Virus record (IMG/VR): IMGVR_UViG_3300034072_002212
Location: 94,417 to 158,416 of that record
Direction: 5' to 3' (one strand)
Length of the DNA: 64,000 bases
Source: a virus
Lineage: Duplodnaviria > Heunggongvirae > Uroviricota > Caudoviricetes
Shown here: positions 24,619 through 51,518 of the stretch, piece by piece
How positions within the stretch are numbered: position 1 is the first letter of the stretch
How the letters are laid out: every line of letters starts with the position of its first letter
The notes under the pieces: generated by a model
What the model was told of the DNA's origin: nothing
The model's database searches: none
The model's input: the letters and a program-made list of their open reading frames with translations, nothing else
Position numbers and translations under genes: made by a program

Positions 24619-25056
24619 TTACCTGCCTCCACCGGCCTGGCGGTAGAGCTGCTTTTCGGTCATGATGCGGAACTTGATGCCGTTAGCCTTGCACCAATCA
24701 TAAGCAGCTTGCCACTTGGCCTCATTGAGCGTGATAGCGTCCAGGTCCTTTTGGGTCCTTGCAGCTTCTGGAATGCTCTGGCTGAGTGGCTTGATCTCAA
24801 TAATCTCACCGTGGCGAGATCCATTTTTGTCAGTGTAGATGATGAAGAAGTCGGGAATATAGTTGCGGACCTTACCAGTGAAGGGATCCTGATACTGAAT
24901 CTTGATCGACTCTGATGCCCACTGCTCAACATAAGGATGCTGATCGCATAGGTTCATGAACGTCAATTCCCACGCGCTGCGGTATGTGATGGGATAGGTG
25001 CCCACATACTTCTCGGGATTCTTGGGTTCAAAGGCGCCCTGATTGTAATGTGCCAT
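24619..25056 (-). CDS. gp4: Head completion nuclease (gp4, TnsA-like)
   Basis: PKNPEKYVG, YRSAWE, WASE, YIPDF, IEIKP. Confidence 0.9.
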   Translation of the reverse strand: MAHYNQGAFEPKNPEKYVGTYPITYRSAWELTFMNLCDQHPYVEQWASESIKIQYQDPFTGKVRNYIPDFFIIYTDKNGSRHGEIIEIKPLSQSIPEAARTQKDLDAITLNEAKWQAAYDWCKANGIKFRIMTEKQLYRQAGGGR

Positions 25057-26128: not shown

Positions 26129-26713
26129 TTACAGGCGGTTACCTGGGATCATCTCAGGCAGAGTGGTCATCAGACCATTTGCTAGAGTTGCGTTGTCGTA
26201 GCGAACGGTCAGCGTGATGGTCTGGAAGCCAGACTCACTGTAGTCGAGTTCGCTGTAGGTAACGTCCTGCAGGAAGCAACCTTCGAGGGTCCAGGTCTCA
26301 ACAACAGTGTCGTTGCCGCCGTCCATGGTCTCGATGATGGTCACAAACTTGTAGTTGATACCAGCTGCGAAAGCAGTCTGCTCAAAGTGGTTGAGCTGCT
26401 TCTGAAGCTGATGGCCAACGAGCTTGCTGACGTTGTTGGTCAGGTCGTCCTTGAGCTCGATCTCGATGGTGTTCCACGAGTGCTTACCGGCATAGTAAGC
26501 GACCGAGTTGTAGGAATCGACCTTGACCTCTTCGTGCGAGATCTTTGGCTTCGAAGCGCGCTGGACCTGCTGGGTGAAGTCGAGACCACCAGCGATTGGG
26601 CCGAAGTTGACCACGCGGACGCGGAAGCGATACTTATACTTGAGCTGGAGCAGACCACCACGGCCTTGGCCGCCGCCTAGTGGAACGCCGAATTTGGAGA
26701 GTGTCTCTGCCAT
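26129..26713 (-). CDS. gp19: Tail tube protein (gp19)
   Basis: YRFRV, WNTIEIELKDD, WTLEGCF, ELDYS, LTVRYD. Confidence 0.88.
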   Translation of the reverse strand: MAETLSKFGVPLGGGQGRGGLLQLKYKYRFRVRVVNFGPIAGGLDFTQQVQRASKPKISHEEVKVDSYNSVAYYAGKHSWNTIEIELKDDLTNNVSKLVGHQLQKQLNHFEQTAFAAGINYKFVTIIETMDGGNDTVVETWTLEGCFLQDVTYSELDYSESGFQTITLTVRYDNATLANGLMTTLPEMIPGNRL

Positions 26714-26806
26714 GGTAATCCTCCGATCGAAGTGGGGGTTTCTCTTATTTACCTGGCTCTTGACGAATAGGTTGAGATATGGCTGAAACTCTTTATAAGT
26801 AGGAGA

Positions 26807-27511
26807 ATGAATCGCTTCTTTGTTTACGCGCTAGTGGATCCAAGAAACCAGCAGCCCTTCTACATCGGTAAGGGGTGCGGAGAGCGCCCAAAGAAGCATC
26901 TCACAGAGACGCTAGAGCAGACCGACAACGTGAGGAAATTCTACAAGATCCAAGCTTTGCGAGAAGCCGGAGTTGAGCCGACAATCTTGAAGCTCAAGGA
27001 GGATCTCAGTGAAGTTGAAGCATTCCAGTTTGAGGAAGAGCAAATCCGTTACTATGGACGGAAAGGTCTAGAACCAGACGGTATCCTCACGAACCTTGTG
27101 TTCGACAATCAGCCACCAAGCCGTATCGGACGAAAGCATTCTGAGGCCACAAAGCTGAAGATCAGCCAGTCCATGACTGGTAAGCCGAAGTCGTCAGAAC
27201 ACCGCGCTAACATCGGTGCAGCCAAAGCTGGAGAGAATAGCCCACATTGGGGCCAGCCGGTTCCGGAGGAACGCAAAGCAAAGATCCGTCAGGGAAACTT
27301 AGGGAAAAAGCGTTCAGAGGATGTTCGTCGGAACATGGCCCAAGCCCACGCGGTCAAATATGAGGTGATCAGTCCGGAGGGGAAGAGAAGGATCTTAGAC
27401 AGCCTCATGCTACAGAAGCTCTGTGATAGCATGGGGCTGAATAAGACGTCCTTCACAAACTCTTGTAGGGCAGGACGCACCTACAAGGGGTGGGGTATCA
27501 AGCGGCTTTAG
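26807..27511 (+). CDS. GIY-YIG/NUMOD3 free-standing homing endonuclease
   Basis: FFVYALVDP...PFYIGKG; LTN; RKHSEATKLKIS; YKGW C-terminus; TATAAGTA promoter 26794-26801. Confidence 0.85.
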   Translation: MNRFFVYALVDPRNQQPFYIGKGCGERPKKHLTETLEQTDNVRKFYKIQALREAGVEPTILKLKEDLSEVEAFQFEEEQIRYYGRKGLEPDGILTNLVFDNQPPSRIGRKHSEATKLKISQSMTGKPKSSEHRANIGAAKAGENSPHWGQPVPEERKAKIRQGNLGKKRSEDVRRNMAQAHAVKYEVISPEGKRRILDSLMLQKLCDSMGLNKTSFTNSCRAGRTYKGWGIKRL

Positions 27512-27846
27512 CCGCGGCCACGAGGCCCTTCAATATGCTTCGTAGCAATACCGACACCCTTGCGAAGCTTGGCAAAGCACTCGTGGAGACAGTGACCTGC
27601 TGGAAGGCTCTTCTCACTAAGGCTCTCATGCTTCAGGCTTTTGTGGATCATGGCCTCTAGCGACTCGCACATATTGCGAAAGTCGTCGTGGGAAACCTCT
27701 GAACCCCAGCCATCACGGATGGATGCTTTCAGGTGATCATGAAGAGCATCGTAGACGATGTCTACGTTGTCGCAGATCACACTATCCATGATCCAGACCT
27801 GCATGGTCTCAAGCGAGTCTGGAAATGGTCCGGTGTATTCAGGCAC
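27508..27846 (-). CDS. Hypothetical protein
   Basis: 112 aa ORF. Confidence 0.5.
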   Translation of the reverse strand: MPEYTGPFPDSLETMQVWIMDSVICDNVDIVYDALHDHLKASIRDGWGSEVSHDDFRNMCESLEAMIHKSLKHESLSEKSLPAGHCLHECFAKLRKGVGIATKHIEGPRGRG

Positions 27847-27858
27847 AGGTGGGTTCCT

Positions 27859-28029
27859 TTACTGGCGGCCTGCGAACTTCTTCATTGCTTCATAAGCAAT
27901 GCGAGCACTCTCCATGAGCTCCTGGAAGTCGGCATTGTCAGCATTCTGCGCCTTCCAAGCCTCAAGGCGGGCGCGCTGATCAGCGTTAATGGACATAAAA
28001 ATCTTCTCCTGAGAAGTGGGCTTCTGCAT
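27859..28029 (-). CDS. Small hypothetical protein
   Basis: AAGGAG RBS before MQKPTSQ; late promoter 28140-28145. Confidence 0.6.
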   Translation of the reverse strand: MQKPTSQEKIFMSINADQRARLEAWKAQNADNADFQELMESARIAYEAMKKFAGRQ

Positions 28030-28139
28030 GGTATAACTCCTTTTCACCAGGACCTTCAATATCTTCCTGGTTGGCTAAGTAGGCAGTAACCTTGAAACCG
28101 GCGGGTTCTCAAGTCGACCACCTGCGACTGAACTACCCA
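28030..28139 (-). ncRNA. Small structured RNA / structured leader just downstream of ro60
   Basis: GGUAGU/ACUGCC closing stem encloses AGUCG/CGACU and GAACC/GGUUU hairpins; starts right after TAAATA. Confidence 0.35.
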
Positions 28140-28198
28140 TATTTATGTATGCAGAAAACTCGGTTGGGACGGAGATAAATTGATTTTCAGTCATGGAA

Positions 28199-28224
28199 AT
28201 GGGGAGGATGTTTCCATCCTCCCC
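28199..28224 (-). terminator. Terminator after ro60
   Basis: GGGGAGGATG-GAAA-CATCCTCCCC followed by AUUU. Confidence 0.7.
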
Positions 28225-28235
28225 ACACCGTGGCC

Positions 28236-29975
28236 TTACTTCGCGAAGAAGTCCGACATGATCTGCGGAGCAGCCGTGTCGAAACCAACAACGTCCATCA
28301 TACCGCTGTCCTTGGGATCAGCGATGGTCACGTTCGTTGCGGTCATACCAACCACAGCCGACTTCGCGGGGATGCCGGTCTTCTGGCGGTATGCCTTCAG
28401 CGCCTGCGAGGGTGCCTGACGACCCGCATAAGTCTCATTGTCGGTGTAAACCGCAAAGGACTCGACGGGCAGCTTGCGCTCCAGGGCCCACTCGAAGGGC
28501 AGCGAACAATCGGTCGAACCGAAGGGCAGACCGCTGATCGTCTTGATCACGTCGTCCAGCCGCTGACGCGGGCTGATCTTCAGGATCGAAACAGGACCAG
28601 CGTCCACGACGTTGGAGTTCTTCGTGCCGCTCGAACCCCAACCGTAGCCGCCGGAGCGACCACCGGTGAAGCCGATGAATTCGTAAGAGCTCTCAACGTT
28701 CGCCGTGATCAGAGCCATCGCAGCCGAAGCAACGCGAGGGTTCAGACCAGGGATGCCTGCGATGTCGCCCGAGCCCATGGAGCCCGAAACGTCCAGCGCC
28801 AGCAGCGTGTTCTTGCCCGTGGGCGTCACGTTGCCGAACGAACCGTAGAACGCCTGATCCAGTGCGTCGGTAACGCGACCGGTAGGAGTCCAGGTCAGGC
28901 TACCCTTGACACCGCGGCCCTGACCATAGGTCCGGAGCGCAGCGAGGATCGCGATCGGGTGAACGCGAGCCCGGCGGATAGCGTCGGAGTCCGACAGCTT
29001 GCTGATGACTAGCTTCTCGGCCGCCGACATGGAAGTCAGCAGACCAACGCTGGACATCTTGCCCAGGTTGCGGATCATCGCCGTCAGAGGCATGTTGGTC
29101 AGCAGAGCCTCCCAGACCTTGGCATCATTCAGGAACTGAGTGGGGATCGCCTCACGGGGGAGGTTGTGATCCTGGATCAGCTTGATGATGTCCTTGGCCG
29201 AAGTTGCCTGCTTCGCCGCCTCGAAAGCGAGGATCTGCGGGTGGAGGATCGTCGAAGCGTCCTGGCGTGCCAGGCGAACCTCGTCCTCGAGAACTGCAGA
29301 GCCACGGACATAGTCCGAAGCGCCGACCGCGCTCATACCGCCGACCATCCAGCGCAGAACTGCGTCACGTGCCGCGTCGTCCGACTTGGGGTGACCCAGA
29401 CGGAGCATGTCGCGGTGCGACCAGCCATCGCGCTGCTGATATTTGATTGCCTGGTTGGCCAGACGATCCAGCGGCATCTCGAGATACCAGTTGCCCACCG
29501 CGCGACGGAGCGCACGACCCCAACCGCGAACACCATCGACGAACGCAGCGAAGTGGAACAGGTGGGTGCCGATACGCGCGACCTTGGGCAGCGCAGCCAG
29601 AGCAGCCTTGCGGGTTGCCTCACTGTCAGCCGCCGAAGCGAGTGCCAGCACGAACAGCGCAGGGTCGTTCTTGGGAGCGCGACCAGCATCGCTGATCTCG
29701 ACCACACGGTTGACCACACGGACACCGTCCTCGGCGATCAGACGCAGAACGTTCTGAGCCGCAGCCTTGGTCAGTTCCTTCTCACCCACATAGTAGGTGC
29801 CGCCCTCGGTGCCGAGGATCAGGAACCGGTCCAGCTGGTCCCACGGGGAGACGACGAAGCTGAAGCCGCCGGCGTTGTTCTTGGTCATCTCCGCCTCGCG
29901 GCCGGGGATTGCCTGGGTTTGTGGGGTCTGGTTGGGCAGAATTGCGCCCATGAGAGTCTTGGTCGACTTCGACAT
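28236..29975 (-). CDS. rsr: Ro60/TROVE-domain RNA-binding protein (Rsr)
   Basis: NNAGGF, RFLILGTEGGTYY, GWGRALRRA, KYQQRDGWSHRDMLRLGHP, MPLTAMIRNL, vWA LALDVSGSM and YTDNET; GGAGG RBS before MSKSTK. Confidence 0.95.
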   Translation of the reverse strand: MSKSTKTLMGAILPNQTPQTQAIPGREAEMTKNNAGGFSFVVSPWDQLDRFLILGTEGGTYYVGEKELTKAAAQNVLRLIAEDGVRVVNRVVEISDAGRAPKNDPALFVLALASAADSEATRKAALAALPKVARIGTHLFHFAAFVDGVRGWGRALRRAVGNWYLEMPLDRLANQAIKYQQRDGWSHRDMLRLGHPKSDDAARDAVLRWMVGGMSAVGASDYVRGSAVLEDEVRLARQDASTILHPQILAFEAAKQATSAKDIIKLIQDHNLPREAIPTQFLNDAKVWEALLTNMPLTAMIRNLGKMSSVGLLTSMSAAEKLVISKLSDSDAIRRARVHPIAILAALRTYGQGRGVKGSLTWTPTGRVTDALDQAFYGSFGNVTPTGKNTLLALDVSGSMGSGDIAGIPGLNPRVASAAMALITANVESSYEFIGFTGGRSGGYGWGSSGTKNSNVVDAGPVSILKISPRQRLDDVIKTISGLPFGSTDCSLPFEWALERKLPVESFAVYTDNETYAGRQAPSQALKAYRQKTGIPAKSAVVGMTATNVTIADPKDSGMMDVVGFDTAAPQIMSDFFAK

Positions 29976-30064
29976 ATTGACTTCCTCCATTTTCGGCTCG
30001 TGAAACCCACGAGCAAGGTTGGTCCCTGACATTAGGACCGGATCAGTCTCGATCTGAAGCTCTG

Positions 30065-30361
30065 TTAGAGCGGCAAACGACTTTCGTCAAGTGCCTTTTT
30101 CAGAGCTGACAAGGTTTCTTCCGGAGAAGAAAAAGTCTTGTTCATATGAACCGGCTTGCTGATCATCACGTGGATCATGTTCTCTCCGAAGAATCGAATG
30201 AGACCAAAACCCTCGAAGCGACCGTTGCCGGGCTTGCGGTTGTTCCAACGAGTGCGCCACGCCTTGTTGACGTTGTGCTCGTAATTGCTTTCGACGCCCA
30301 GCAGATCTGCGACGTCCTGGTAGAACTTCTCTTCTACCGACACAGTTTCGTTTTCCATCAT
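30065..30361 (-). CDS. Hypothetical protein
   Basis: 98 aa; late promoter 30365-30370. Confidence 0.65.
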   Translation of the reverse strand: MMENETVSVEEKFYQDVADLLGVESNYEHNVNKAWRTRWNNRKPGNGRFEGFGLIRFFGENMIHVMISKPVHMNKTFSSPEETLSALKKALDESRLPL

Positions 30362-30399
30362 TCCTATTTAAGCACAGGAATGGGAAAACGTCAACCCAA

Positions 30400-31241
30400 A
30401 AAGAATGGGGTGGAGGGCTGGGCGAACCATACCCTCCGGGTTATTCCCATATAGGGAATTGGTTGAGATTGGTCTGGACCGAGATCCAGCGCCCTACTTT
30501 GCGTCATCAACAACGTAGCACTTTGAGCTCAAGGCTCGAGAGCAAGTGTGAAGGTGGACCGGGCTAGACTATCATGATAGAGATCATGATACCTATATCT
30601 CCCTAGGCAGGCCGAAGCCTGTTTCCACGTTGTTGAGTCAGCGTTTTCGGGTCTTCTCTATTTGTCATAGATAACCCACCAACATCGGCTCTTCGATCTG
30701 TTGACACTTGCCCCTGAAGTGTCAGTAAGTCTCCGGAGACCGGAGTCTCCGGAGGGGCGAGTAGGCTAGGTCTGTCCAGCACCAACCCGCGGGGCTCAAT
30801 TGAGTGGTTCGACTTGGCCCACTCGACCTAGGGAGACTATGCCTTTCATCTCCCGGCGCAGCAAGGGGTGAATTTCCGCTAGGCCCCCATTGTTTCCGAT
30901 CCAGGTAGCTAAGGAGGGACCAAAACCTGGGACTTATGACCGAAGCCAGCCCACCCTCTTTATTCGTTCCTTCCGGTTTTGGCTAGCCGGCGGAACTACT
31001 TACCCGACCCACAAATGCCTAGGGCGGGGCGAGGGGTGATCCTTCCCTCGACAAAGCTACCTTGGAGGGTTTCCCCTCAGATCACTAGAGACCCTGTTAA
31101 GGACCTCGTTGCACTTCATCCGGTCAATTCCGGATCTCTTGTCCTCCCCCGGCGCCACCCGGGCGATACCTTTATGTGTCAGCACACATCCCAGTCACCA
31201 AGAACAAGATATATGGGTTCAAGGGCCGAAGCCCCTCAGTG
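30400..31241 (-). ncRNA. Large (~800 nt) highly structured non-coding RNA candidate
   Basis: No credible ORF; TAAATA at 31246-31251; three cUUCGg, one cUCCGg and a GAAA tetraloop, all reading correctly on the minus strand; several 7-10 bp long-range helices; 5'/3' ends pair. Confidence 0.8.
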
Positions 31242-31245
31242 CCTG

Positions 31246-31251
31246 TATTTA
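31246..31251 (-). promoter_or_regulatory. T4-type late promoter core TAAATA driving the large ncRNA
   Basis: Same hexamer sits upstream of most late operons (e.g. 1555, 2447, 9269, 16405, 20452, 24082, 26746, 28140, 30365, 33798, 39502, 60756, 61616 on minus; 2436, 44307, 49642 on plus). Confidence 0.7.
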
Positions 31252-31356
31252 AGGAAATACACAAAAAATGGGCTCAAAGCAACCTTTTTCTGCAGATTTT
31301 CTCACCAGTCATGGAAATGGGCCGACATTTCTGCCGACCCACTCCCTTTGTGTGCC

Positions 31357-33759
31357 TTACTGGAACAGCGCGCCGAGGTCGTCGCCGGTTGCCACAATAC
31401 GGACTGGAATGTAGATGAACTCAATCGCCTGAACTGGCTGGATCGCAATGTCCACCCACAGTTCGTGACGGTCGATACGCTCTGGAGTGTTGTTGGACTC
31501 GTCGCAGACCACGATGAAGTCGTAGAGACCGCGCAGACCAACAAGGTCAGCCAGGAAGCGTTCGAAGGTCGTCTTGACCGAGTCACGAGTCTGGAAGTCG
31601 TTTGGCTCGAAGAGGAATGGCTTCGAGATGTTATCCAGATTGTAACGCAGGTAGTTGACCAGACGCGCCACGTTGATACGATCCAGCGAGGTATCGAGGT
31701 TGTGACGGGTCTTCTGACCATACACGACCAGACCGCGGTTTGGAATGTATGCGATTGGGTTGATCTTGTTGCTGTAGAGGAGGTCACGCTGACCGTTGTT
31801 CAGCATTGCTGCCTTGAACTCACCCTGGTCATCCAGGTAACCCACGCTAGAAGCGTTGGTGACCAGACCACGAGTGAAACCAGCTGGAGCCATCCACTGA
31901 TAGCTAACAGAGTCGTTGTAAGCGAGGGTGCGGAGTGCGATGGTCGATGGTGGGACCATGATCTCGTTACCGTCGACGTTGGTGCTCAGACCCCATGGGT
32001 AATACATACCCACGTATGGGTTGAAAGTGCTGACGCCTGCCTCACTGTTGCCGTTCGAAGAGTTGGTTGCGAACTTCTGGATTTCAGCACCAGTTGGCTT
32101 CAGACGGGCTGGGGTGTCGCCGACGATGAAAGCAACTTCCTTCATGTCGGTGTTCAGGGTCACCATCTCGTCGATGAGCTCGATGTAACCAGGAGCAGCC
32201 AGCAGGTTGAAGTAAACGGTCTCTGCGCGAATGTCTTCGTTGCTCGAGATCGTGCCAGCGAGTGCCTTGACGATCATCTGACGCTGCGCCTTGCGGCCGA
32301 AGAATGGAACGCCGCTGAGCTGGTAGCCCGAAACGTTCACCCACGAACCGTTGGTGTACTGCTTGACGTCGTTGGTCGAAGCAGCGAGGTCGAACAGCTT
32401 CATACCTTCTGCGTAGTTGACTGCCGAGGTAGAAACTGCCTCACCAAAGGCAATGCCGTCGATTGGGTCGATGTTGTTCTCGACGTTGATCGCCTTCCAA
32501 GCATTGTTGGTGCGACGATACATCTTTGGATAGTTCTCGAGATCCGAAGTGTCCACCCAGAGGTCATTCTCAACCAGCGGAGCGCCAGTGCTCTGAGTGG
32601 TTGGAGCCGAACCAAGTAGGATCACGCCGTTTGCGTCAGTTGCTGGGTAAACCGAACGGTATGCAACCCACTGACCACCCTGGCTGATCTTGACGTTCAC
32701 CGAGAGGTTCTGGTTGTTATACCACAGGGTGCCTTCCTCTGGATCGCTGGTTGGCTCTGCGGAACCAGCCTGCTCACCGAGGTTAACCCAGTTGCTGCCG
32801 TCGAACTTGCGGAAGTTGAAGACCGCACGAGTGTCCTCATGACGCAGGTAAACCGAACCGGTGACCTGTGCCAGAGTGGTTTCACGCTGCTGGCTGTAGA
32901 TTGGAACCAGAGTCTGATCCCAAGCGCCAGTTGCGACGTTGAAGGTCTTCAGCAGCCAAGTTGCTGCCGCAGAGATCGAGGTCACAACGTCTGGAGTGTG
33001 GAGGATCAGAACGCTACCAACTGCGCCGTTCGCTGGGCGGTAGGTGTTGTAGGTCAGGTTCAGGTCAGCCGAAGCACCTGCCGCAACCTTTGCGTTCTTC
33101 CATTCGGAAGTGCCGACAACCTGCCAAGTGCCGTCAACCATCTGGTAGAGGACCTTGGTCTGAGTCAGAACCACCATAGCGAAGTCGCCCTCGACCGCAC
33201 CAGCAATCAGAGGAACTGGAACGCCAGAGATGATCTCAGCAGCTTCAGTGTCAATGGAGTCTTCGTCTTCAACGACCCAGAGATCGCGCTCAGCCCACTC
33301 GCTGCCAGTGTACTCGTAGATGCCCCAGGTGTTGTTCTGAGTGTCGAGCCAGTTGGTGCCGTGAGCAGCTTCAGCACGTGGCGCAGTTGCGCGTGGCATC
33401 AGCTGAGCATAGTCGATCGCTGCGCGAATGACGAACGCGCGGTTAGCAATACCAAGATACTGGTATGCCGCATGGAGACCGAACTCGTTGAGTTCGTAAC
33501 CGTGAACAGCAGAGCCGTTCTTGGTGTAGAAAATTGGGTTGCCGAACGTCTGGAGGAGCTCGCGCTGGCTCGTGATTGGGTAGAGCTTGTTCGCGTTCTC
33601 AGGAAGGGTGCCCTCAGCAACACCGCTACCACTTGGCAGCGACTTGTATTCGTGCGTGCCGATGATGATCAGCGGAACAGTGCCTTCACCAGCCGTTGCG
33701 TAGTTGGATTCGTCGGTTACGGTAACAGAAGTACCGGGCGACACTAGAGGATAAACCAT
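31357..33759 (-). CDS. gp18: Tail sheath protein (gp18)
   Basis: LVSPGTSVTVTDES, ELNEFGL, YYPWG, PAGFTRG, INPI, YGQKT, LDRINVARL, FEPND. Confidence 0.95.
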   Translation of the reverse strand: MVYPLVSPGTSVTVTDESNYATAGEGTVPLIIIGTHEYKSLPSGSGVAEGTLPENANKLYPITSQRELLQTFGNPIFYTKNGSAVHGYELNEFGLHAAYQYLGIANRAFVIRAAIDYAQLMPRATAPRAEAAHGTNWLDTQNNTWGIYEYTGSEWAERDLWVVEDEDSIDTEAAEIISGVPVPLIAGAVEGDFAMVVLTQTKVLYQMVDGTWQVVGTSEWKNAKVAAGASADLNLTYNTYRPANGAVGSVLILHTPDVVTSISAAATWLLKTFNVATGAWDQTLVPIYSQQRETTLAQVTGSVYLRHEDTRAVFNFRKFDGSNWVNLGEQAGSAEPTSDPEEGTLWYNNQNLSVNVKISQGGQWVAYRSVYPATDANGVILLGSAPTTQSTGAPLVENDLWVDTSDLENYPKMYRRTNNAWKAINVENNIDPIDGIAFGEAVSTSAVNYAEGMKLFDLAASTNDVKQYTNGSWVNVSGYQLSGVPFFGRKAQRQMIVKALAGTISSNEDIRAETVYFNLLAAPGYIELIDEMVTLNTDMKEVAFIVGDTPARLKPTGAEIQKFATNSSNGNSEAGVSTFNPYVGMYYPWGLSTNVDGNEIMVPPSTIALRTLAYNDSVSYQWMAPAGFTRGLVTNASSVGYLDDQGEFKAAMLNNGQRDLLYSNKINPIAYIPNRGLVVYGQKTRHNLDTSLDRINVARLVNYLRYNLDNISKPFLFEPNDFQTRDSVKTTFERFLADLVGLRGLYDFIVVCDESNNTPERIDRHELWVDIAIQPVQAIEFIYIPVRIVATGDDLGALFQ

Positions 33760-33870
33760 AAACCAGCCCCTTTGCAATCGGTGGATTTCGTTACCAGTAT
33801 TTATCCAGCGGTTGAAAAGGTGGGTGGATTATGTGCTAGGAGAACCTCTACTCTTTTTCAGCTATACAGA

Positions 33871-50858: not shown

Positions 50859-51518
50859 ATGGCACCGCCCAAATATCCGCGCACGTTCCATTGGCCGTGG
50901 TCCCAACAGGTCCACAGCGATGACTCCTACCATCAGGATCCCAGCTTCTTCGTCGGCAAGGACGTCTACATCAGCGAAAAGCTAGACGGTGGCAACACCG
51001 CGCTGAACGCAGGCGAAGTCTACGCGCGCTCCACTGGTCAGGCAGCAACGCAGGGCTGGTTTGCCCATGTGAAGAAGTATCACGCCTGGAAGACCGCAAC
51101 GCTGGATCCCAGCATCACGATCTATGGTGAGGACCTCGCGGCACTTCACTCCATTCCCTACCAGCTTCCCATGGACGAGACCTACAAGGTCTTTGCCGTG
51201 CGCGAAGGGGATGAGTTTCTGCCCCTCTATAGTGTCCTCGCTATCGCGGCACAGCTGAACCTCGACGTGGCACCTCGGGTCCACTATGGGACGTTCAATT
51301 CGGTCGAAGAGATCACCAAGTTCTTTGAGACTGAGATTCAGAAGCCTAGCGTCTACGGCACCCAGCGCGAGGGGTTCGTGATGATGACGCCCTATGGCTT
51401 CATGGCCGATGAGTTCAGCCAGAACGTCTGCAAGTATGTTCGCAAGAACCACGTTCAGACGGATGAGCACTGGACCAAGAACTGGCAGTGGAATGATCTG
51501 ACTCCACCCAGCTACTGA
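50859..51518 (+). CDS. RNA ligase (Rnl2-like adenylyltransferase domain)
   Basis: KYPRTFHWPWS, SEKLDGGN (KxDG), IYGE, EGFV, KYVRKNHVQ. Confidence 0.85.
   Translation: MAPPKYPRTFHWPWSQQVHSDDSYHQDPSFFVGKDVYISEKLDGGNTALNAGEVYARSTGQAATQGWFAHVKKYHAWKTATLDPSITIYGEDLAALHSIPYQLPMDETYKVFAVREGDEFLPLYSVLAIAAQLNLDVAPRVHYGTFNSVEEITKFFETEIQKPSVYGTQREGFVMMTPYGFMADEFSQNVCKYVRKNHVQTDEHWTKNWQWNDLTPPSY

What the first reader, a model, noticed from the sequence alone, without database searches (positions are those of the whole stretch)
28236..29975. Full-length Ro60 (TROVE+vWA) carried by a jumbo phage inside the tail gene region
Seen: a 579-aa Ro60 with intact RNA-binding HEAT-ring motifs and vWA MIDAS (DVSGS...TDNE), inserted between sheath and tube genes and flanked on both sides by structured non-coding segments. 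Established: bacterial Rsr binds Y RNAs and works with PNPase and RtcB RNA repair; phage Ro homologues have been reported only sporadically. Inference: it chaperones the giant RNA, or protects/repairs RNA cut by host anti-phage ribonucleases together with the phage RNA ligase.
Basis: partly seen in the sequence, partly recalled or inferred. Interest (0 to 1): 0.72.

Follow-up and report, generated by a model that had tools for sequence, protein, structure and literature searches.

The report
Jumbo-phage Ro60 with its Y RNA
A giant phage carries a genuine Ro60 RNA-binding ring protein together with its partner Y RNA; this protein-RNA pairing is already known from many phages and bacteria, so the find is mostly ordinary, with two unusual RNA details worth a bench test.

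Summary
Window 28236-29975 (minus strand) encodes a 579-aa Ro60/Rsr orthologue (TROVE plus Ro60-type vWA, all MIDAS residues kept) between the tail sheath and tail tube genes.

It is not a rarity or a recent insertion:
- 362 GenBank phage records encode a homologue.
- The same gene sits at the same place in the published relatives Agrobacterium phage Atu_ph07 and Sinorhizobium phage Phosso, and in about 20 metagenomic 0.4-0.57 Mb phages.
- This scan has noted phage Ro60/Y-RNA pairs many times on other DNA.
- The phage copies form one clade, apart from rhizobial Rsr, under purifying selection.

New here:
- Part of the upstream "giant RNA" (30536-30696) is a Y RNA. A covariance model built from it finds 89 elements beside bacterial Ro60 genes, all on the gene's strand and 88 upstream. 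Rfam labels several of these as Y RNAs.
- The Ro60 5' leader carries a covarying hairpin whose base mimics the Y-RNA Ro-binding helix (bulged C), 3-7 nt before the ribosome site. This suggests autoregulation, which is inferred only.

No RtcB or PNPase is phage-encoded. The RNA-repair reading is weakly supported.

The parts
28236..29975 (-). Ro60/Rsr orthologue, 579 aa plus stop
   Evidence: The start codon was chosen.
28938..29885 (-). TROVE (HEAT-repeat ring) domain
   Evidence: Pfam PF05731, E 2.6e-43. K178, R182 and H195 are invariant.
28248..28808 (-). Ro60-type vWA domain with MIDAS (D395, S397, S399, T488, D512)
   Evidence: Pfam PF25045, E 8.7e-52. Invariance is shown.
29976..30055 (-). 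Conserved Ro60 5' leader. It runs AGAUCGA, hairpin 1 (30021-30039), hairpin 2 with a bulged C (29993-30016), then the Shine-Dalgarno GGAGG (29984-29988).
   Evidence: Alignments. Model R1 and pair counts. MFE fold.
30065..30361 (-). orf98, a small basic protein of unknown family, always linked to Ro60 in this phage group
   Evidence: tblastn. No Pfam, PHROG, PDB or Atlas family.
30365..30370 (-). TAAATA late-type promoter core in front of orf98-Ro60
   Evidence: The same core precedes the sheath, tube and other structural genes.
30397..30437 (-). Hairpin plus U-run that ends the upstream RNA unit
   Evidence: Read from the sequence. The simple terminator scan did not call it.
30536..30696 (-). 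Y RNA module. It has a terminal stem AGAGC/GCUCU, a bulged C, GA over UU, an upper stem, GGGUUAUC and inner hairpins.
30930..31242 (-). Conserved 5' core of the large non-coding RNA, of unknown kind. It lies upstream of the Y RNA in most relatives.
   Evidence: blastn and nhmmer. No Rfam match.
31246..31251 (-). TAAATA late-type promoter core in front of the RNA unit
28201..28224 (-). Terminator hairpin after Ro60, followed by the CCATTTCCATGA motif
   Evidence: Fold z-score -4.7. Motif copies.
31357..33777 (-). Tail sheath gene (context)
   Evidence: Pfam Phage_sheath_1C.
26129..26713 (-). Tail tube gene (context)
   Evidence: Weak Pfam gp19 hit. It is 74% identical to the Phosso tail tube.
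26807..27511 (+). GIY-YIG/NUMOD3 homing endonuclease in the variable spacer between Ro60 and the tube gene (context)
   Evidence: Pfam. It is present or absent among relatives.

Best explanation
This is a genuine Ro60 (Rsr) orthologue that belongs to the stable gene set of the Atu_ph07/Phosso-like jumbo phages of alphaproteobacteria. It was acquired once and has been kept at a fixed site between the sheath and tube genes. It is predicted to be transcribed with orf98 from a T4-type late promoter core (TAAATA). It comes with its own Y RNA, a roughly 160-nt module (30536-30696) inside the upstream promoter-to-terminator RNA unit. The closing stem of that module has the Ro-binding architecture: a GC-ended stem, a bulged C, then G.U and A-U. 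It also has the GGGUUAUC motif of bacterial Y RNAs, but no tRNA-like domain. The likely mechanism, which is inferred, is that late in infection Ro60 binds this Y RNA. The resulting particle then acts on structured or damaged RNAs, or modulates a host 3'-5' exoribonuclease (PNPase), as shown for D. radiodurans Rsr and for Thermus phage phiLo Ro60. The phage encodes no PNPase or RtcB of its own. A second copy of the same helix forms a hairpin in the Ro60 mRNA leader, 3-7 nt before the ribosome-binding site. Free Ro60 probably binds there and represses its own translation, matching protein level to Y RNA level. Shown: gene identity, conservation, Y-RNA family membership by model search and position, and hairpin covariation. 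Inferred: binding, timing, autoregulation and the PNPase link.
For: Identity.

One clade at a fixed site:
- The sheath-RNA-orf98-Ro60-tube order is found in Phosso, Atu_ph07 and about 20 metagenomic phages.
- The tree gives one clade with support 99, apart from rhizobial Rsr.
- The best bacterial identity is only 56%, and rhizobial copies are 41-43% identical.
- dN/dS is 0.09-0.28.

Y RNA:
- The two strands GAGCCGA and UUGCUC lie 133-154 nt apart in 12 phages.
- In the structure, 96% of cells are paired and 12 of 17 pairs show compensatory changes, with 0 of 500 shuffles reaching this.
- Model R2 gives 89 hits at E<=0.1 in 82 bacterial Ro60 loci. All are on the Ro60 strand, 88 are upstream, and 51 loci are hit.
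- R2 also gives 25 further hits upstream of Ro60 in other phages and three bacterial loci.
- All 19 long hits checked carry a T-loop.
- Rfam labels the same coordinates Deinococcus Y RNA, YrlA or nematode sbRNA.

Leader hairpin:
- It is conserved in 19 phages.
- Helix 2 is 97.7% paired and 6 of 9 pairs are compensatory.
- Non-training hits fall just before Ro60 in L153, L014 and L016.
- L208 has GCCGU in both its Y RNAs and its leader.

Late promoter cores.

Literature: bulged C as the Ro60 determinant (PMC4030889), the GNCGAA motif (PMC4201824), and phiLo Ro60-Yrl-PNPase (PMC12135203).
Against:
- Rfam's own Y RNA models do not hit the window module, even at E<=1.
- In the window the Y module has no convincing promoter of its own, so it may exist only as part of an approximately 830-nt transcript.
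- Relatives L009-L011 and L153 keep Ro60 and the leader hairpin but lack the Y module.
- Atu_ph07 shows neither RNA element with my models.
- The leader hairpin has the reverse strand order of a Y RNA stem. It could be a stabiliser or a processing site instead.
- The pair counts were made on model-fitted alignments, which lean towards the structure.
Confidence: 0.7

Rival explanations
1. One reading: Ro60 works with phage RNA ligase(s) to protect or mend tRNAs and other RNAs cut by host anti-phage ribonucleases, as in rsr-rtcBA operons.
For: An RNA_ligase (PF09414) domain gene lies at window 50961-51440. Earlier notes report another ligase-like gene just outside the window. PMC7824862 places TROVE proteins of jumbo phages among RNA-repair systems. 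Relatives L205-L207 carry a DSPc-like phosphatase gene between the RNA and orf98.
Against: No RtcB is found in this record or in five relatives, four of them estimated 90-100% complete plus the Phosso genome. The ligase gene is about 21 kb away, and nothing links it to Ro60 in synteny. There is no tRNA gene in the window. The Y RNA here has lost the tRNA-like domain typical of repair-operon YrlA.
Confidence: 0.2
2. The leader hairpin is not an operator. It is a minimal Y-like RNA (like phiLo Yrl2), an mRNA stabiliser, or a processing signal, with no feedback on Ro60 synthesis.
For: phiLo Yrl1 and Yrl2 lie directly upstream of the Ro60 gene and one is a single hairpin with CGAA. The AGAUCGA word precedes both the Y module and the leader, as a shared processing or start signal would.
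Against: The distance from the helix to the Shine-Dalgarno sequence is held at 3-7 nt in all 18 phages examined. There is no terminator between the hairpin and the start codon.
Confidence: 0.3
3. Ro60 is a recently captured host gene (a moron) with no phage-specific role.
For: Its G+C is 62.4% against 53.9% for the genome record. A homing endonuclease and variable small ORFs lie next to it.
Against: The phage copies are monophyletic with fixed synteny across phages whose Ro60 copies are only 52-88% identical. They are under purifying selection. Rhizobial Rsr is only 41-43% identical. The variable DNA lies downstream of Ro60, not around it.
Confidence: 0.03
4. Ro60 is a virion or tail-assembly component, because it sits in the tail module and has a protein-binding vWA/MIDAS domain.
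For: It lies between the sheath and tube genes and has a late-type promoter core.
Against: All RNA-binding residues are kept, and partner RNAs lie beside it. No structural role is known for any Ro60.
Confidence: 0.05

Closest known systems
Bacterial Rsr (Ro60) with Y RNAs: D. radiodurans Rsr-Yrn1-PNPase (RYPER), Salmonella and M. smegmatis Rsr with YrlA/YrlB
   Same: The domain order is the same and the protein aligns end to end with solved Rsr (E 2.9e-127). A Y RNA lies upstream on the same strand. The stem-GC-bulged C-GA motif and GGGUUAUC are shared.
   Different: The Y RNA has no tRNA-like T and D arms. It is about 160 nt long and sits inside a roughly 830-nt promoter-to-terminator unit, behind a conserved RNA core of unknown kind. 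No rtcBA genes are present. The stem has AGAGC/GCUCU instead of GGGC/GCCC.
Thermus phage phiLo Ro60 with Yrl1/Yrl2 (PMC12135203)
   Same: It is a phage Ro60 with CGAA-bearing Y-like RNAs directly upstream of the gene. The phage has no PNPase of its own, so any PNPase partner must be the host's.
   Different: It is an unrelated phage type with a different host phylum. phiLo does not have a large RNA joined to the Y module. No hairpin of reversed strand order at the ribosome site has been described there.
Agrobacterium phage Atu_ph07 gp128 'RNA-binding protein' and Sinorhizobium phage Phosso 'Ro-like RNA binding protein'
   Same: They belong to the same phage group. The tube protein is 68-74% identical, and the sheath - small ORFs incl. 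orf98 homologue - Ro - tube order is the same.
   Different: Phosso Ro60 is only 52% identical to the window's; Atu_ph07's identity was not measured. Phosso keeps a divergent Y module and leader hairpin. In Atu_ph07 my models find neither.
Metazoan Y RNAs and nematode sbRNAs
   Same: They have a closing stem with a bulged cytosine followed by GA paired to UU, which is the Ro60 determinant (PMC4030889). Small Y RNAs hit by my model also score with the Rfam sbRNA model.
   Different: The RNA polymerase, size and loop functions differ. The likeness is confined to the Ro-binding stem.

Membership tests
Ro60/Rsr (TROVE + vWA_Ro60) | TROVE HEAT-repeat domain over the Pfam threshold | tested here: met
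   PF05731 scores 149 bits against a cut-off of 23.
Ro60/Rsr (TROVE + vWA_Ro60) | C-terminal Ro60-type vWA domain with a complete MIDAS (DxSxS, T, D) | tested here: met
   PF25045 scores 176 bits. D395, S397, S399, T488 and D512 are invariant.
Ro60/Rsr (TROVE + vWA_Ro60) | Full-length colinearity with a solved Ro60 | tested here: met
   It aligns to 2nvo residues 4-529 of 535, E 2.9e-127.
Ro60/Rsr (TROVE + vWA_Ro60) | Residues used for RNA contact (human K170, R174, H187) | tested here: met
   K178, R182 and H195 align to them. The role of H187 is from PMC4030889. The role of K170 and R174 is from my own recollection.
Ro60/Rsr (TROVE + vWA_Ro60) | Ring-shaped fold | not tested
   No structure was predicted, because the sequence match to solved structures was judged sufficient.
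Ro60/Rsr (TROVE + vWA_Ro60) | Binds Y RNA or misfolded RNA | not testable with these tools
   This needs EMSA or RIP.
Y RNA (bacterial and phage Ro60 partner RNAs) | Encoded within a few kb of Ro60 on the same strand | tested here: met
   The module is 30536-30696 on the minus strand, 561 nt upstream of the Ro60 start. It is the only copy in the 181.8-kb record.
Y RNA (bacterial and phage Ro60 partner RNAs) | The 5' and 3' ends pair in a stem carrying the Ro site (GNCGAA-type motif, bulged C) | tested here: met
   The stem is AGAGC-[C]-GA over UU-GCUCU. Helix 1 is 96.9% paired and 5 of 7 pairs are compensatory. The motif reads GCCGAU here and GCCGAA in most other loci. The true RNA ends are unknown.
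Y RNA (bacterial and phage Ro60 partner RNAs) | Recognised by or recognising known Y RNA models | tested here: inconclusive
   Rfam YrlA, Deinococcus Y RNA and sbRNA models do not hit the window. In the reverse direction, model R2 built from it hits elements that Rfam labels with these families.
YrlA subfamily (tRNA-like Y RNA) | tRNA-like T arm and D arm | tested here: not met
   No GGTTCGAATCC-like word occurs within 2 mismatches in 27000-32000 outside the sheath gene. ARAGORN finds nothing. So it is a Y RNA but not a YrlA.
Autogenous translational operator | Mimic of the protein's RNA site overlapping or abutting its own ribosome-binding site | tested here: met
   The leader hairpin UU-GCUC...GAGC-[C]-GA lies 3-7 nt before GGAG in 18 phages.
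Autogenous translational operator | The protein represses its own translation through that site | not testable with these tools
   This needs a reporter assay.

The most novel reading that the evidence does not exclude
In this phage group Ro60 is wired in two ways not described for any Ro60. First, its Y RNA is physically joined to a large conserved structured RNA, so Ro60 would be tethered to, or would chaperone, an RNA of about 830 nt of unknown function. Second, Ro60 controls its own synthesis through a reversed copy of the Y-RNA binding helix placed at its ribosome-binding site. That design is also seen before Ro60 in an unrelated phage (L016) and perhaps in a myxobacterium (L079).
Probability: 0.3. 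Interest if true: 0.55.

Novelty: new member of a known kind. Interest (0 to 1): 0.35.

Why it matters
Ro60-Y RNA particles are conserved from bacteria to humans, yet their job in phage infection is unknown. This phage group has two cultured members: Phosso on Sinorhizobium meliloti and Atu_ph07 on Agrobacterium tumefaciens. The Ro60 gene is fixed in the late structural module of these phages. Phosso also keeps a divergent Y RNA module and a candidate feedback hairpin; my models found neither in Atu_ph07. That gives a tractable system to ask what a viral Ro particle does, whether it recruits host PNPase, and whether Ro60 levels are set by an RNA mimic of its own ligand. As a gene find it is ordinary.

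Tried and rejected
- Rfam at gathering score on the whole window, and at E<=10 on 26500-31600, gave nothing relevant. A first control on phage Catera at gathering score also gave no YrlA. I wrongly suspected that Rfam lacked the family.
- The raw GNCGAA word occurs 190 times in the window and has no discriminating power on its own.
- A scan of viral contigs with a 16-base gapped pattern returned mostly chance hits and only one new relative.
- The sigma-70 promoter and simple terminator scans were uninformative for this phage.
- I tried to name orf98 with Pfam, PHROGs, a PDB profile search and the ESM Atlas. None gave a family.
- Complex prediction of Ro60 with orf98 gave no verdict (score 0.00, controls not run). 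It counts neither for nor against binding.
- Models R1 and R2 on the Atu_ph07 locus gave no significant hit. A hand-found candidate stem downstream of its Ro gene is too weak to use.
- I considered the 598-aa form starting at ATG 30032 and rejected it.
- I considered a recent host origin and rejected it.

Full report
OBSERVATION

The minus strand carries an ORF at 28236-30032. Its product has a TROVE domain (E 2.6e-43) and a Ro60-type vWA domain (E 8.7e-52). It matches PHROG 850 'RNA-binding protein' (E 2e-84). It aligns over its whole length with solved D. radiodurans Rsr (2nvo, E 2.9e-127) and with human and Xenopus Ro60.

- ATG 29975 is preceded by GGAGG.
- The farther ATG at 30032 lies in the loop of a conserved hairpin and is absent or frame-shifted in relatives.
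- Database homologues are 554-581 aa.

The MIDAS residues D395, S397, S399, T488 and D512, and the counterparts of human K170, R174 and H187, are invariant in 112 homologues. The flanking genes are the tail sheath (31357-33777) and tail tube (26129-26713).

WHAT GENOME THIS IS

The window is part of a 181.8-kb IMG/VR record estimated at 39% complete. By tube protein, the nearest named phages are Sinorhizobium phage Phosso (74%, 469 kb) and Agrobacterium phage Atu_ph07 (68%, 490 kb), followed by PA5oct and Rak2-like phages.

HOW COMMON AND HOW OLD

- Ro60 homologues occur in 362 GenBank phage records.
- Published work reports YrlA RNAs beside Ro60 in 22 phages (PMC4201824), a Thermus phage Ro60 structure with two Y-like RNAs (PMC12135203), and TROVE proteins in a subset of jumbo phages (PMC7824862).
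- This scan has itself noted phage Ro60/Y-RNA pairs many times on other DNA.
- In Phosso, Atu_ph07 and about 20 metagenomic contigs of up to 572 kb, the order is always the same: sheath, non-coding stretch and/or small ORFs, orf98 homologue, Ro60, tube.
- The phage copies form one clade (support 99), separate from rhizobial Rsr.
- The best bacterial matches are 56% identical and come from unrelated phyla. Rhizobium and Bosea copies are 41-43% identical.
- Pairwise dN/dS is 0.09-0.28.

The gene is therefore an old, vertically kept member of this phage group, not an insertion. What varies is the spacer downstream of Ro60. It ranges from 130 nt to 3.4 kb and holds a GIY-YIG homing endonuclease in some genomes, including this one.

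THE PARTNER RNA

About 1 kb between the sheath gene and orf98 has no conserved ORF but is 68-74% identical in relatives.

Within it, the words GAGCCGA and UUGCUC lie 133-154 nt apart in 12 phages. These include distant ones whose spacer is otherwise not alignable. They form a closing stem: AGAGC, a bulged C, GA on one side and UU, GCUCU on the other. An upper stem, the word GGGUUAUC and inner hairpins follow.

I built covariance model R2 from 11 of these and searched with it:
- Across 82 bacterial Ro60 loci (485 kb, both strands) it gave 89 hits at E<=0.1. All 89 are on the Ro60 strand, 88 are upstream of the gene, and 51 loci are hit.
- Across other phage loci and three bacterial loci it gave 25 further hits, again all upstream and on the same strand.
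- All 19 long hits checked contain a tRNA T-loop word, the mark of YrlA.
- Rfam, at E<=1, labels the same coordinates Deinococcus Y RNA, YrlA or nematode stem-bulge RNA.
- On the pooled alignment the structure is 96% paired, with compensatory changes at 12 of 17 pairs. None of 500 shuffles reached this, and slid controls gave at most 46%.

The window module is thus a Y RNA. It is not a YrlA, because it has no T arm. Rfam's own models do not reach it. It is the only copy in the record.

The bulged cytosine is the main Ro60 determinant in animal Y RNAs and is kept in bacterial ones (PMC4030889). The bacterial motif is GNCGAA (PMC4201824).

RELATION TO THE 'GIANT RNA'

The upstream unit has one TAAATA core (31246-31251) and one hairpin-plus-U-run (30397-30437). 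It contains a conserved 5' core (30930-31242) followed by the Y module.
- Core and Y module are adjacent in this order in most relatives.
- The core stands alone in L009-L011 and L153.
- The Y module stands alone in L205 and L012.

They are separable modules. Whether the window makes one RNA of about 830 nt or two RNAs cannot be told from sequence. In L004 and L207 a TAAATA core lies directly before the Y module; in the window it does not (read).

THE LEADER

Between orf98 and the Ro60 start, 19 phages keep two hairpins.

The second hairpin has a covarying upper part and a sequence-fixed base: UU-GCUC ... GAGC-[C]-GA. This is the same helix as the Y RNA stem, but capped by a loop so that the strand order is reversed. 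It ends 3-7 nt before the Shine-Dalgarno sequence in every case. Helix 2 is 97.7% paired and 6 of 9 pairs are compensatory.

Model R1 found non-training copies just before Ro60 in L153, L014 and the unrelated phage L016. It gave a weak hit before the rsr gene of a myxobacterial MAG. L208 has GCCGU instead of GCCGA in both its Y RNAs and its leader.

I read this as a likely autoregulatory operator, at odds of about one in three. A stabiliser, a processing signal or a minimal Y-like RNA are the alternatives.

TIMING AND PARTNERS

TAAATA cores precede the sheath, tube and other structural genes on this strand, as well as the RNA unit and orf98-Ro60. By analogy with T4 late promoters (established knowledge), this predicts late expression.

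No RtcB or RNase PH/PNPase domain is encoded in this record or in five relatives, four of them estimated 90-100% complete plus the Phosso genome. Any nuclease partner would therefore be the host's, as in phiLo. An RNA-ligase domain gene lies about 21 kb away, but nothing ties it to Ro60.

orf98 is a small basic protein with an invariant RW..R..GNGR motif. It is linked to Ro60 throughout the group, including Atu_ph07. Its role is unknown.

VERDICT

This is a real and intact Ro60, already known in kind and even at this genomic position. The added value is twofold: its Y RNA has been identified inside the neighbouring large RNA, and there is a conserved Ro-site mimic at its own ribosome-binding site.

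Noticed in passing
window 30930-31242 (-): A conserved, apparently non-coding core of about 310 nt with long invariant runs, such as UGGUGACUGGG.UGUGUGCUGACACAUAAAGG. It is found behind the sheath gene in at least 14 related phages and has no Rfam match. Its kind and function are unknown.
   Followed up: partly
window 30049-30055 and 30693-30699 (-): The word AGAUCGA precedes both the Y RNA module and the Ro60 leader and is conserved in relatives. In the 181.8-kb record, AGATCGA followed within 120 nt by GAGCCGA occurs only at these two places. It may be a shared start or processing signal. In the Y module, its UCG pairs with CGA at the 3' end.
   Followed up: partly
window 28191-28202 and 31309-31320 (-), plus two more copies in the genome record: The motif CCATTTCCATGA lies directly after the terminator hairpins of the sheath and Ro60 genes. 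There are four copies in 181.8 kb. Its role is unknown.
   Followed up: no
window 26807-27511 (+): A GIY-YIG/NUMOD3 homing endonuclease on the opposite strand, in the variable spacer between Ro60 and the tube gene. It is present in some relatives (L003, L005, L006, L202) and absent in others.
   Followed up: partly
window 27508-28059 (-): Two small ORFs (66 and 112 aa) downstream of Ro60 have no homologue in any related locus and no family match. They may be strain-specific cargo or not genes at all.
   Followed up: partly
L205 3973-4545, L206 3642-4259, L207 3537-4100: More distant relatives carry a dual-specificity-phosphatase-like (DSPc) gene and a roughly 220-aa ORF between the RNA region and orf98. 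This may be an RNA-end phosphatase linked to the Ro60 module.
   Followed up: no
L015 4298-4413: A wcaG RNA motif (Rfam RF01761, 56 bits, over the gathering score) lies beside small Y-like RNAs upstream of the Ro60 gene of a 296-kb phage contig.
   Followed up: no
window 24619-25056 (-): A protein with a TnsA-like endonuclease N-terminal domain (E 1.4e-20). It corresponds to the gene annotated as head completion or head closure protein in Phosso and Atu_ph07.
   Followed up: no
window, minus strand: 33803, 31251, 30370, 28145, 26751, 24087, 20457, 16411, 9274 and others: TAAATA occurs 14 times on the minus strand against 3 on the plus strand. Nearly every copy lies 20-40 nt before a structural gene start. 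This is a T4-late-like promoter core for this phage group.
   Followed up: partly
L076 and L073 (Verrucomicrobia-type loci): Bacterial rsr genes there are preceded by arrays of up to five tandem Y RNAs and flanked by long tRNA gene arrays.
   Followed up: no
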